A stretch of DNA of 8,482 bases. Origin: a virus (Duplodnaviria > Heunggongvirae > Uroviricota > Caudoviricetes). The position numbers were made by a program. Each line of letters begins with the position of its first letter. Position 1 is the stretch's first letter. Positions 3,001 to 6,000 of the stretch are shown piece after piece. The DNA is taken from the IMG/VR virus record IMGVR_UViG_2703718806_000006, positions 1 to 8,482 of that record, one strand, 5' to 3'.

Positions 3001-6000
3001 CTTTGCTGGTGGCCCGTATGCGCAGTCACAGTTCTGAATATTACCGGGAGATCGTCGAACGACGGGATCGGCTGGTGAAAGATGTGGATGATTTTGTCGC
3101 TGTAGCGATCGCCTGGGGCACCCTGACTAACAGTGGTGGTCAGCCTGGTAATGCTGTTGTTGTGCATTGACCAACAATATTTATACCGGATTTCTTCCGG
3201 AAGTTCGTGGGTAAAGTTCGGTATCAGAAGAGGTGAGTATGGCTAATGCCTGGCTCAGATTGTGGCATGACATGCCAAATGACCCCAAGTGGCGAACGAT
3301 TGCCAGGGTATCAGGACAGCCAATCGCAACAGTGATGGCAGTGTATATCCACCTTCTGGTGAGCGCGTCACGAAATGTCACGACATGTCACGGCGTGTCA
3401 CTACGTGGTCACATTGATGTCACGACGGAAGATTTAGCAAGTGCGCTTGATGTGACGGAAGACGTAATTGATTCAATTTTGCATGCAATGCAGGGGCGGG
3501 TTCTGGATGGTGACCTTATTTCCGGATGGGAAAAACGTCAGGTGCTGAAAGAGGACAATGGTAACGTTTCGCAAACGGCAAAATCCCCGGCAGAGCGCAA
3601 GAGAGCGCAGCGGGAGCGCGAAAAGCTGCGGAAATATGATGCTGATTGTCACGATGAGTCACGACGTGTCACGCATCTGTCACGACAAGTCACGACAGAT
3701 AAAGATACAGATACAGAATTAAACCCCACACATAACGCGCGCATGCGCGAGAGTGCTCCAACCGGTGAGTCGCATGGTGCGCCGTTGCAGACAGCCGAAC
3801 CTGAATACCTGGACGGCCTGAGCGAACCGATCGGGAAATTTTCGATGACTACTGTCTGGCAGCCGTCGCCGGATTTTCGACAACGGGCAGCAGTGTGGGG
3901 TATGGCTCTGCCTGAGCCGGAATTTACACCTGCTGAGCTTGCCGCATTCCGGGATTACTGGATGGCGGAGGGGAAGGTTTTCACGCAGGTTCAGTGGGAG
4001 CAGAAATTTGCCCGCCACGTGCAGCACGTCAGGGCACAGGTAAAACCAGTCAGCAAGGGGGTAAGCCATGCAGCATCAGGTGGCACGGCATCACGGGCAG
4101 TTCAGGAAATCCGGGCAGCACGCGAACAGTGGGAACGTGACAACGGATTTATCAGCAACGGAAACGGCCTGGAAGCTGTGGGAGCTTATGGGGGAGGTGT
4201 ATTCGAACCGCTGGACTCAGAAGAACGGGGCCGCACCTTCGAAGCTCTGGATTGCCCAGATTGGTGCGATGACTGAACAGCAAATCCGTCTGGTCTGCCG
4301 TCAGTGCATGGACCGCTGCCGGGCGGGTGAAACGTGGCCCCCGGACCTGGCTGAGTTTGTTGCGCTGATTTCGGAGAGTGGGGCAAATCCATTTGGTCTT
4401 ACGGTGGATGCAGTGATGGAAGAGTACCGGCGCTGGCGCAATGAATCCTGGCGATACGACGGGAGTGATAAATACCCGTGGCCACAGCCTGTGCTGTACC
4501 ACATCTGCCTCGAAATGCGTACCAGAGGGATTGAGCGCCAGATGACGCAGGGTGAGTTAAAACGACTTGCGGAACGGCAACTGACGAAATGGGCAAAGCA
4601 TGTTGGTAACGGGATGAGTGTTCCGCCAGTGCGACGACAACTGGAAGGGGCGAAACACCCGCAAGGGCCAACGCCAATTGAACGGCTGAAACAGGAATAC
4701 GAACGCCGGAAGGCAGCTGGTTTTATTTGAATCTGAGAAACGATTTTGTCGGAGGAAATTTTAATGGAAACCGTATTTGACGCACTGAAAGCACTGAAAA
4801 AAGCCTCTTCACAGGTAGTGGCGGCCCGCCTTGGAATCAGCCGTGAAGATGCGGTCAACGAACTGTGGAAACTGAAGCGCCGTGGTGAAGCGGATAACAA
4901 GGGGTCGATGTGGTGGCTGATTCAGGCTGGTGAAAGTGAACCAGTGTCACCGGTACCGAAAGTGACAGCGCAAATGCTGACTGAGGCGATTGAACAACAT
5001 GGCCCACAAACGGCGGATGAGCTGGCACTGATGTTCGGGATTACCTCCCGCCGGGCGAATTCATCGCTGGCCATGGCAATCAGCAAAGGGCGTCTGATTC
5101 GCGTGAATCAGGGCGGTAAATTTCGTTACTGTATACCTGGCGCTGATTTACCGGCAGAGCCGGAAGCTGCATCCGTAGCGGAAACCGATGGTAAAGCCTT
5201 TCCTCAGCCAACAGGTGTTGCGTTACCAGTCCGGGAAGCGGAAACACAGGAAGAAATAAAAACTGAAAGTGTGGCGGTCACAGTGCAGTCACAGCCGTTG
5301 TTCACCAGAAAACATCCGGATGGTCTGATTTTACCATCGCTGCATGTGGCTAACCGCGAGCTGCGCCGGGCAAAAGGTCAGGTTCAGAAGTGGGAGCGAG
5401 TCTGCGCCGCGCTGCGGGAACTGAACAAGCACCGGGATATTGTTCGGCAGATTGTCGATTCATCCGGTCGTATTGTGTCGGAAAAGTGATTGCCGGAGGC
5501 GCTTATGGCGAAACCTTTTACACACGAACAGCGTGAAGAACTGAAGGCCCGAATTATCGGGTTGGTACGCAAAAATGAACGCATGACGATATCACAACTG
5601 GAGAGAGCGACGGGAGCAGGCTGGCATTCAGTCAGACGTTGCCTTGTGGATGTACTGGCTTGTGGCGATTTATACATGCCCGGTAAATACGGTGTTTTTG
5701 CATCAGAACAGGTGTATCGCGTATGGCGTAAGACACCGGAGAAGGCTGCTGACCCGACACTGATTCGAAAGTTACCTGACGGAGAAATACGTCGTTACAA
5801 CAGACGGCAGAACATAATTTGTCGTGAGTGCCGCCAGAGCGAAGTTATGCAGCGTGTGCTGGCTTTCTATCAGGGGAATTTTCAGAAGGTGCTGTTGTGA
5901 GCCAAATTAACAATCGGAACTTCGTGAAGAGAAAGCATAATCCAAATCTGAATAATTAAGTTCAGCACTGTAAATAAAATTCAATCCTTAACTGGAGGTA

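What the first reader, a model, noticed from the sequence alone, without database searches (positions are those of the whole stretch)
3367..3720. Two helically phased GTCACG iteron arrays embedded in the replication initiator gene
Six and five copies of GTCAC(G/T/A) at 10-11 bp spacing form two clusters about 225 bp apart (3367-3424 and 3648-3694), the second followed by an AT-rich GATACA-repeat tract. This is the signature of a lambdoid origin inside the initiator coding sequence, but with a bipartite layout. The repeats also impose repeated V-T/S-R peptide motifs on the protein.
Basis: seen in the sequence. Interest (0 to 1): 0.5.

Follow-up and report, generated by a model that had tools for sequence, protein, structure and literature searches.

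The report
Two-part origin inside phage initiator gene
Two clusters of a short repeated DNA word inside a prophage's replication-initiator gene are very probably the sites where that protein binds to start copying the phage. The same two-cluster layout, with different words, is conserved in related phages of many bacteria, but I found no report of it being described or tested.

Summary
GTCAC(G/T/A) occurs six times at 3367-3424 and five times at 3648-3694, all on the + strand at 10-11 bp spacing. An A-rich (ACAGAT)n tract follows at 3695-3723. All of it lies inside a 345-aa initiator gene (3239-4276) of an E. coli lambdoid prophage.

Comparison with about 60 homologous loci shows selection on the DNA itself:
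- Both arrays sit at the same two places in the gene in gamma- and beta-proteobacterial prophages and phages.
- Four-fold degenerate sites inside the cores are nearly invariant, while other such sites vary freely.
- Diverged subfamilies carry a different word (CGAACGC, GTAACGC, GCAACGC), always the same in both arrays.
- The tract after array 2 uses GAT and AAA codons almost exclusively, even in GC-rich hosts.

Array 1 encodes a loop of the DnaD-like N-terminal domain. Array 2 and the tract encode a disordered linker. The C-terminal DnaT-like domain is exchangeable, and the exchange joint lies in the tract.

Best reading: an intragenic iteron origin that works like ori-lambda or the pSK41 origin, but two-part and built from short phased sites. 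It is a new variant of a known kind. Function and the role of array 1 are untested.

The parts
3239..4276 (+). Replication initiator gene (345 aa). It encodes an N-terminal DnaD-NTD-like winged-helix domain (aa 1-~100), a basic helix (aa 117-134), a disordered linker (aa 143-190) and a C-terminal DnaT-like ssDNA-binding domain (aa ~200-270).
3367..3424 (+). Iteron array 1: six direct copies of (T)GTCAC(G) at 10, 10, 10, 11, 11 bp. It encodes aa 43-62, a loop or weak hairpin between helix 3 and the winged helix of the N-terminal domain. Most relatives have four copies; this lineage has a 21-bp (7-codon) expansion.
   Evidence: Four-fold degenerate sites in the cores are nearly invariant across 21 diverse loci.
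3447..3457 (-). Single inverted iteron copy (TTGATGTGACG on the + strand, GTCAC on the - strand), 33 bp after the last copy of array 1.
   Evidence: It is present at the equivalent position (gene nt 193) in most GTCAC-class loci. The Val third position is G in 19/19. The GTAAC class has GTTAC or GTGAC at the same place.
3648..3694 (+). Iteron array 2: five direct copies of GTCACG at 10, 10, 11, 10 bp. It encodes aa 137-152, at the end of the basic helix and the start of the disordered linker. Relatives have 3-6 copies.
3695..3723 (+). A-rich, purine-strand-biased tract (ACAGATAAAGATACAGATACAGAATTAAA, 24% G+C). It is the candidate DNA-unwinding element. It encodes the D-K/D-T linker and is also the mosaic joint between the N-terminal and C-terminal modules.
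   Evidence: Family-wide codon bias GAT:GAC 131:2 in the tract against 376:400 elsewhere, and AAA:AAG 99:20 against 299:293. Homology break at gene nt 459-479.
3736..3749 (.). G+C-rich palindrome CGCGCGCATGCGCG just after the tract. Its role is unknown. It belongs to the C-terminal (Rac-SA53 ydaU-like) module.
   Evidence: an imperfect counterpart is seen in L002.
4068..4730 (+). Lambda-P-like helicase loader gene, the partner of the initiator. RefSeq starts it at 4269. The ORF and its family matches extend up to the ATG at 4068.
   Evidence: Pfam PF06992 E=1.3e-15. PHROG 109 P-like helicase loader. Annotation.

Best explanation
The two GTCACG arrays, the single inverted copy and the A-rich tract together form the replication origin of this lambdoid prophage, written inside the gene of its own initiator.

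Proposed mechanism; every step is inferred. The initiator's N-terminal winged-helix domain binds each 10-11 bp unit, probably as a monomer because the units have no dyad symmetry. The spacing averages 10.3-10.4 bp, so the bound proteins line up on one face of the helix. Oligomerisation within the arrays, and probably between them across the 229-bp spacer, bends or wraps the DNA. That stress opens the adjacent A-rich tract at 3695-3723. The C-terminal DnaT-like domain then holds single-stranded DNA or recruits the P-like loader with host DnaB.

Array 2 plus the tract is the core origin. It is the equivalent of the iterons plus AT-rich region of ori-lambda and of the Rep boxes of pSK41. Array 1 is an auxiliary cluster of the same sites. 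It may act as an enhancer, as an intramolecular 'handcuffing' or titration site, or as a roadblock that autoregulates transcription of the initiator and loader genes.

One unit is not a multiple of three bases, so the arrays can grow in frame only by 21 bp (10+11). That explains the alternating spacing.
For: 1. Context: a cI-like / cro-like / cII-like (YdaT) / initiator / lambda-P-like loader module.
2. Non-randomness.
3. The word falls in all three reading frames, so this is not a peptide repeat.
4. In 21 diverse GTCAC-class loci, four-fold degenerate sites inside the cores have a mean entropy of 0.17 bit, against about 1.5 bit at the other four-fold sites of the same domain. The sixth-position G and the inverted copy are also invariant.
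5. The two-array layout is at the same gene positions in Escherichia, Shigella, Aeromonas, Serratia, Pseudomonas, Bordetella, Chromobacterium, Acidovorax, Gilvimarinus and Ralstonia phage Firinga, among others.
6. Specificity classes exist: GTCACG, CGAACGC, GTAACGC and GCAACGC. In all 39 loci with periodic arrays at both places, the two arrays carry the same word. The independently found top 5-mer is identical in 35; in the other 4 the 5-mers overlap within CGAACGC.
7. The 36 nt after the last copy of array 2 are among the top 2% most AT-rich windows of the gene in 29 of 39 loci. GAT:GAC there is 131:2 against 376:400 elsewhere (Fisher p=4.5e-34), and AAA:AAG is 99:20 against 299:293 (p=1e-11). 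This holds even in genes of 60-68% G+C.
8. The N-terminal domain and both arrays travel as one module while the C-terminal domain and the neighbouring genes change. The joint lies in the tract.
9. The arrays encode loop or linker segments (AF2), as in pSK41 Rep, whose ori-encoded central domain is a dispensable linker (PMC5703833).
Against: There is no experiment on any member, and I found no paper describing these repeats.

DNA binding by the N-terminal domain is inferred. The DnaD NTD, its best structural match, does not itself bind DNA (PMC7145576).

The A-rich tract is only about 29 bp here.

No enrichment of DnaA boxes and no IHF site was found.

Some relatives lack array 1 (L124), have only 1-2 weak sites (L108, L113, L120), or have none (L126, L128, Microcystis phage L137). 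Two arrays are therefore not obligatory for every member, or those copies are defective.

The role of array 1 is not resolved by any result here.
Confidence: 0.8

Rival explanations
1. Only array 2 plus the A-rich tract is the origin. Array 1 is a separate control element bound by the same protein. It could be an autoregulatory roadblock inside the initiator's own transcription unit, or a titration or handcuffing site that limits initiation, like incA of plasmid P1.
For: Array 2 alone has the canonical iterons-then-AT-rich layout and lies in linker-coding DNA. One relative keeps array 2 but lacks array 1 (L124). The Rac-SA53 ydaU type has sites only next to the tract. The distance between the arrays is set by the protein-coding spacer and differs between classes (about 195-229 bp), so helical register between the arrays is not conserved.
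Against: Array 1 is as strongly conserved as array 2 and always changes word together with it. No data separate a stimulatory role from an inhibitory one.
Confidence: 0.35
2. The repeats are binding sites for a different protein and serve another process, such as a repressor or exclusion protein, a partition centromere like R1 parC (two sets of 11-bp repeats), or a packaging site.
For: Two clusters of phased 10-11 bp direct repeats formally resemble plasmid centromeres (my own knowledge of R1 parC). Other DNA-binding proteins are encoded nearby (DUF1627, DUF977/Ren-like).
Against: No partition or terminase genes are adjacent. The repeats co-segregate with the initiator's N-terminal domain while the neighbouring genes differ between phages. 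The word changes with the initiator subfamily. The position and the AT-rich tract fit an origin.
Confidence: 0.05
3. The repeats are a by-product with no DNA function: a peptide repeat, or neutral replication slippage.
For: Slippage does occur. Copy number varies (4-6 and 3-6), and two close relatives carry a 10-bp duplication of one unit.
Against: The word is read in all three frames. Synonymous sites in the cores are frozen across distant taxa. Single-unit slippage destroys the reading frame, so the arrays are costly to keep. The layout is retained across gamma- and beta-proteobacteria.
Confidence: 0.02

Closest known systems
ori-lambda inside gene O of phage lambda, with the O initiator and the P loader
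   Same: The origin lies inside the initiator gene, in DNA that encodes the link between an N-terminal origin-binding domain and a C-terminal loader-recruiting domain. Repeated initiator sites are followed, in the direction of transcription, by an AT-rich region. The next gene is a P-type helicase loader (PF06992). The genome position, after cro and cII, is the same. The lambda iterons are described in PMC8022706 and PMC7466680.
   Different: The initiator is not a lambda O homologue (no Pfam match for the N-terminal domain). The sites are 10-11 bp direct units without dyad symmetry, not four ~19-20 bp iterons. There are two arrays 229 bp apart, one of them inside the DNA that encodes the DNA-binding domain itself. 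The C-terminal domain is DnaT-like.
RepA_N plasmid replicons such as pSK41
   Different: No sequence membership (Pfam RepA_N not hit at E<=10). [quoted passage not shown] Here the units are short asymmetric direct repeats in two arrays, and the element is a proteobacterial lambdoid prophage.
Phage SPP1 oriL inside gene 38 (replisome organizer gp38)
   Same: Direct repeats plus an AT-rich unwinding element inside the gene of the origin-binding 'replisome organizer' (PMC6316719). NCBI names this protein family 'phage replisome organizer'.
   Different: No detectable sequence match to the Pfam replisome-organizer domain. SPP1's second set of sites (oriR) is about 13 kb away, not 229 bp away within the same gene.
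Intragenic repeats of P22-like phages (six imprecise 11-bp TGTCCAACGGA repeats in gene 18 of phage L)
   Same: Short repeats of about 11 bp inside a lambdoid initiator gene, proposed from sequence to be the origin (PMC8022706).
   Different: A single cluster, a different initiator family, and no comparative or specificity-class analysis reported.
Bipartite iteron systems of P1 (incC/incA) and P4 (ori/crr); from my own knowledge, not checked here
   Same: Two separate clusters of the same initiator-binding repeat, one at the origin core and one acting as an enhancer (P4 crr) or a negative controller (P1 incA).
   Different: Those clusters flank the initiator gene or lie kilobases from it. Here both are inside the coding sequence, and one is in the part that encodes the DNA-binding domain.

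Membership tests
Lambda-type origin (ori-lambda / gene O) | Origin located inside the initiator gene, in the inter-domain linker-coding part | tested here: met
   Array 2 and the tract encode aa 137-162, at the edge of the disordered segment 143-190 (same in P0079). Array 1 lies elsewhere, in the N-terminal domain's coding part.
Lambda-type origin (ori-lambda / gene O) | Four ~19-20 bp iterons with internal dyad symmetry | tested here: not met
   The units are 10-11 bp with an asymmetric core (T)GTCACG(C/A) and are direct repeats.
Lambda-type origin (ori-lambda / gene O) | AT-rich region immediately downstream of the iterons | tested here: met
   3695-3723 is 24% G+C; family-wide codon bias supports selection on it.
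Lambda-type origin (ori-lambda / gene O) | Initiator homologous to lambda O | tested here: not met
   The only Pfam hit of the whole protein is DnaT. The N-terminal 161 aa give no Pfam family at E<=10.
Lambda-type origin (ori-lambda / gene O) | Adjacent P-type helicase loader | tested here: met
   PF06992 E=1.3e-15; PHROG 109.
Lambda-type origin (ori-lambda / gene O) | Initiator-dependent replication from the fragment | not testable with these tools
   Needs a plasmid replication assay or marker-frequency analysis.
RepA_N-type intragenic origin (pSK41) | DnaD-NTD-like winged-helix N-terminal domain | tested here: met
RepA_N-type intragenic origin (pSK41) | Sequence membership in Pfam RepA_N (PF06970) | tested here: not met
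   No hit at E<=10.
RepA_N-type intragenic origin (pSK41) | Semi-palindromic iterons converging on a poly-A tract | tested here: not met
   No dyad within the units.
RepA_N-type intragenic origin (pSK41) | Exchangeable C-terminal domain on a conserved N-terminal domain plus ori module | tested here: met
   In alignment A1 the first ~155 aa are conserved and the rest is unrelated between members. DNA mosaic joint at gene nt 459-479.
SPP1-type replisome organizer (Pfam PF09681 / TIGR01714; accession numbers from my own knowledge) | Sequence match to the N-terminal replisome-organizer model | tested here: not met
   No Pfam hit. NCBIfam gives only a sub-threshold DnaT match. The name 'phage replisome organizer' is given by NCBI records only.
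DnaT (primosomal protein I) | C-terminal three-helix ssDNA-binding domain | tested here: met
DnaT (primosomal protein I) | Full-length equivalog of host DnaT | tested here: not met
   NF002770 scores 94 bits against a cut-off of 201, and only positions 82-156 match.

The most novel reading that the evidence does not exclude
The site and its reader may be physically coupled. Array 1 encodes the loop (aa 43-62) of the very domain that reads the iterons. Between the GTCACG and CGAACGC classes, most class-specific substitutions are iteron-encoded. Of eight substitution positions that are conserved within each class but differ between them, six lie in array-encoded segments (aa 46-48, 58, 138, 148). 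The others are aa 117 and 124; aa 77 (I/V) was set aside as conservative, and class A also has an insertion at aa 108-116. If that loop contacts DNA, a change of the iteron word would rewrite part of the recognition surface in the same mutational step. That would be a built-in route to new origin specificities and new incompatibility groups. A linked possibility is that the two arrays pair across the 229-bp spacer, looping out the DNA that encodes the winged helix, and so tie initiation to transcription of the initiator gene.
Probability: 0.1. Interest if true: 0.8.

Novelty: new variant of a known kind. Interest (0 to 1): 0.45.

Why it matters
This initiator family is widespread. The search found 922 protein clusters. 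It occurs in E. coli O157 and Shigella prophages, in D3-like Pseudomonas phages and in many beta-proteobacterial prophages. No member appears to have been studied experimentally (and the literature searches).

The analysis provides a ready-made origin map with clear parts: two arrays, one inverted site, an unwinding tract and an exchangeable recruitment domain. It also provides a natural series of specificity classes. These make origin recognition, incompatibility between co-resident prophages and modular evolution of phage replication modules directly testable.

It is also a clean example of overlapping codes. A DNA-binding-site array with a 10-11 bp period is kept inside a reading frame, which restricts in-frame growth to 21-bp steps and makes single-unit slippage lethal to the gene.

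Tried and rejected
- Peptide repeat: rejected because the word is read in frames 0, 1 and 2.
- Chance clustering: rejected.
- Host-factor sites: DnaA boxes are not enriched and none lies in the arrays; there is no IHF consensus site in the window.
- Promoters and terminators in or around the arrays: numbers as in shuffles.
- Pfam assignment of the N-terminal domain: none at E<=10.
- Homology of the N-terminal domain to DUF1376 (the N-terminal domain of Rac-SA53 YdaU): hhalign probability 0.4%, rejected.
- Centromere or packaging-site readings: rejected on gene context.
- Literature searches for GTCACG iterons, replisome-organizer origins in lambdoid phages, oriJ/ydaU and bipartite intragenic origins found no description of this element.
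- The viral-contig scan returned almost only near-identical E. coli loci. It was useful only for copy-number polymorphism.
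Full report
**1. The observation**

The window carries GTCAC at 3367, 3377, 3387, 3397, 3408 and 3419, and at 3648, 3658, 3668, 3679 and 3689. All copies are on the + strand, with spacings of 10 or 11 bp. Nine of the eleven are GTCACG.

GTCACG occurs 12 times in 8482 bp against 3.8 expected. GTCAC occurs 26 times against 14.3, and no shuffle reached that number. Counting same-5-mer pairs spaced 10-11 bp gives 10 for GTCAC, against at most 3 in 1000 Markov resamplings.

Tandem Repeats Finder finds both arrays and a hexamer repeat (ACAGAT)x3.8 at 3695-3717. The tract 3695-3723 is 24% G+C in a 55% G+C gene and has a strong A-over-T skew.

This is an 11-mer that differs by one base from TTGATGTCACG at 3414-3424.

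**2. The setting**

The arrays lie in a 345-aa ORF, 3239-4276. Around it are:
- a cI-like repressor gene on the other strand (1878-2378);
- a cro-like gene (2486-2761);
- a YdaT/cII-like gene (2745-3170);
- after the ORF, a lambda-P-like helicase loader, then DUF1627 and a Ren-like DUF977 gene.

A 98.5% identical stretch in an E. coli chromosome is annotated the same way by RefSeq. This is the immunity-replication region of an E. coli lambdoid prophage, and the ORF occupies the place of lambda O.

Its N-terminal 160 aa match no Pfam family. They have 922 homologous protein clusters, which NCBI calls 'phage replisome organizer'.

**3. Evidence that the repeats are selected as DNA**

*Reading frame.* The word falls in reading frames 2, 0, 1, 2, 1, 0 in array 1 and 1, 2, 0, 2, 0 in array 2. 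It yields S-R, V-T and C/G-H dipeptides in turn.

*Conserved layout.* I fetched 52 loci from one-genome-per-species contigs, plus phage records. The same two-array layout recurs at the same gene positions: array 1 at gene nt ~129-160, array 2 at ~387-418. It is seen in Escherichia, Shigella, Aeromonas, Serratia, Rahnella, Pseudomonas (including the D3-like phage phi1), Bordetella, Chromobacterium, Aquitalea, Acidovorax, Gilvimarinus and others. The usual counts are 4+3 or 4+4 copies.

*Frozen synonymous sites.* I compared 21 diverse loci that are collinear over the first 105 codons. Four-fold degenerate third positions inside the GTCAC cores have a mean entropy of 0.17 bit. The G after the core is invariant at both testable sites. 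The Val codon of the inverted copy is GTG in 19/19. The other four-fold sites of this highly conserved domain average about 1.5 bit.

**4. Specificity classes**

More diverged members have no GTCAC. At the same two places they carry a different periodic word:
- CGAACGC in L112, L114-L118, L121-L123, L125, L130, L135 and the phage contig L139;
- GTAACGC in L086 and L119;
- GCAACGC in Ralstonia phage Firinga (4(+1)+4 copies);
- a mixed 5-bp GTCAC/GTAAC/GTGAC/GTTAC pattern in L094, L106 and L109.

When the dominant periodic 5-mer is found independently in the two regions, 39 loci have arrays in both. In 35 the top 5-mer is identical. In the other four the two 5-mers overlap within CGAACGC.

Two arrays that always change word together, and together with the protein subfamily, are what is expected of cognate binding sites of that protein.

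The words share the 3' half (ACGC or ACG) and differ in the first three positions.

**5. The A-rich tract**

In 39 loci I took the 36 nt that follow the last copy of array 2. They begin almost invariably with (C/T)AGATAA(A)GA and continue as (GATAAA)n, (GATACA)n or purine-rich variants.

This window is among the top 2% most AT-rich windows of its gene in 29 loci. That includes genes of 60-68% G+C.

Asp is encoded GAT:GAC 131:2 there, against 376:400 in the rest of the genes (Fisher p=4.5e-34). Lys is AAA:AAG 99:20, against 299:293 (p=1e-11).

The tract is therefore kept AT-rich at the DNA level. That fits a DNA-unwinding element placed exactly where ori-lambda, SPP1 oriL and plasmid origins have theirs.

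**6. What the arrays encode, and modularity**

- Array 1 encodes aa 43-62. This is a loop or weak hairpin between helix 29-45 and the winged-helix part (pLDDT 64-67 here; about 80 in a 4-copy relative).
- Array 2 and the tract encode the end of a basic helix (aa 117-134) and the start of a disordered linker (aa 143-190).

So the DNA signals occupy the protein's most tolerant segments.

The N-terminal ~155 aa are conserved across the family, and the rest is unrelated between members. At the DNA level, gene nt 1-479 match phages Evi and Tritos (about 84%). Gene nt 459-1038 match ydaU of phage Rac-SA53 (88%), whose N-terminal domain is a different family (DUF1376) and has no GTCAC. The joint lies in the A-rich tract.

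The downstream partner also varies: a P-like loader here, and DnaB-type helicases in pAEv1818, Firinga and Cy-LDV1.

The N-terminal domain with both arrays and the tract therefore behaves as one portable origin-plus-reader module.

**7. Copy number and the 21-bp rule**

This lineage has 6+5 copies, as does E. albertii. Tritos and Shigella have 4+5, and most others have 4+3 or 4+4.

The differences are 21 bp (10+11, or seven codons). This explains the alternation of 10 and 11 bp spacing and the period-21 call for array 2.

Among 80 near-identical loci, 71 are 6+5 and seven have a point mutation in the last copy. Two (L051, L058) have a 10-bp duplication of one unit. It shifts the frame and truncates the protein after about aa 156. 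Slippage by a single unit therefore happens, and it is destructive.

**8. Mechanism**

*Shown:* position, phasing, DNA-level selection, co-variation, the AT-rich tract, modularity and the fold class.

*Inferred:* the N-terminal domain binds one unit each, on one face of the helix (mean spacing 10.3-10.4 bp). The arrays oligomerise and distort the DNA. The tract at 3695-3723 opens. The DnaT-like domain and the P-like loader bring in DnaB.

Array 2 plus the tract is the core origin. Array 1, with its inverted copy, is an auxiliary cluster whose sign (enhancer, handcuff or titrator, or transcriptional roadblock) cannot be decided here.

Exceptions exist. L124 keeps only array 2. L108, L113 and L120 have one or two weak sites. 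L126, L128 and a Microcystis phage have none.

**9. Comparison with what is known**

Functionally this is the lambda, pSK41 and SPP1 principle: an origin inside the initiator gene, in linker-coding DNA, with an AT-rich element and an exchangeable recruitment domain (PMC8022706, PMC7466680, PMC5703833, PMC6316719).

It is not a member of the lambda O family, nor of Pfam RepA_N or the replisome-organizer family by sequence. Its sites differ from theirs: they are short, asymmetric and phased at one helical turn.

Phage L gene 18 has six 11-bp repeats that were proposed as its origin, but in a single cluster (PMC8022706).

I found no paper describing the GTCACG arrays, the two-part layout or the specificity classes. 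No well-studied phage carries this N-terminal domain (literature).

**10. Verdict**

The feature is real and strongly supported as the prophage's origin of replication. It is a new variant of a known kind, of moderate interest.

The most novel reading left open is that the loop encoded by array 1 takes part in reading the iterons. Most class-specific residues are iteron-encoded. If so, the site and its reader would change in one mutational step.

Noticed in passing
L051 and L058 (array 2 region; equivalent to window 3679-3700): Two near-identical prophage copies carry a 10-bp duplication of one iteron unit (AAGTCACGAC), giving six copies. This shifts the frame and truncates the initiator after about aa 156. 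It is either natural slippage that knocks out the gene or an assembly error.
   Followed up: partly
window 4068-4276: The P-like loader ORF starts at the ATG at 4068, preceded by AAGGGGG at 4055-4061. It overlaps the initiator's last 209 nt in another frame. RefSeq starts the gene at 4269 (ATGACTGA overlap). However, the Pfam lambda-P match begins at residue 58 of the long ORF (profile position 31) and the PHROG match at residue 14. The annotated start probably cuts off part of the domain. PHROG 15931 matches both proteins.
   Followed up: partly
window 3697-3717; L002 2441-2530: The A-rich tract is the recombination joint between the N-terminal module (Evi/Tritos-like) and the C-terminal module (Rac-SA53 ydaU-like). 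Rac-SA53 ydaU has a DUF1376 N-terminal domain. It carries nearly the same tract, preceded by a different pair of sites, TGTTCAAACA and TGTTTGAACA. The tract may be a shared origin and linker cassette for several initiator families.
   Followed up: partly
window 3736-3749: A G+C-rich palindrome, CGCGCGCATGCGCG, lies right after the A-rich tract. From my own memory, ori-lambda has a palindrome in a similar position to the right of its AT-rich region. Its function here is unknown.
   Followed up: no
window 5277-5294: Two copies of GTCACAG, 11 bp apart, inside the DUF1627 gene. This could be chance or a stray pair of initiator sites.
   Followed up: no
L127 (Serratia MAG) and L133 (Pantoea), about gene nt 320-370: Here the same N-terminal domain has no iteron arrays. 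It is fused to a segment with GIY-YIG-like motifs (YVYYV...VGIS.NPW.R), whose DNA contains clustered ACTACGTA / CTACGTAG words.
   Followed up: no
L094, L106, L109 (Erwinia, Pantoea, Enterobacter), gene nt ~140-230 and ~410-455: In this subfamily the arrays are built from abutting 5-bp units (GTCAC, GTAAC, GTGAC, GTTAC) in both orientations, for example GTCACGTCACGTCACGTGAC, instead of 10-11 bp direct repeats.
   Followed up: no
window 1379-1860, 7486-7698 and 7865-8137: The prophage carries a RelE/ParE-RelB toxin-antitoxin pair next to the repressor gene. By the RefSeq annotation of the near-identical locus, it also carries a Hok/Gef family gene (about window 7398-7553) and a GIY-YIG nuclease gene.
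   Followed up: no
L140 (Pseudomonas phage phi1) 2501-3397: The 299-aa homologue in this D3-like phage has 4+4 GTCAC copies. It is not annotated as a gene in the GenBank record; the stretch between a 207-nt CDS and 'replication protein P' is left empty.
   Followed up: no
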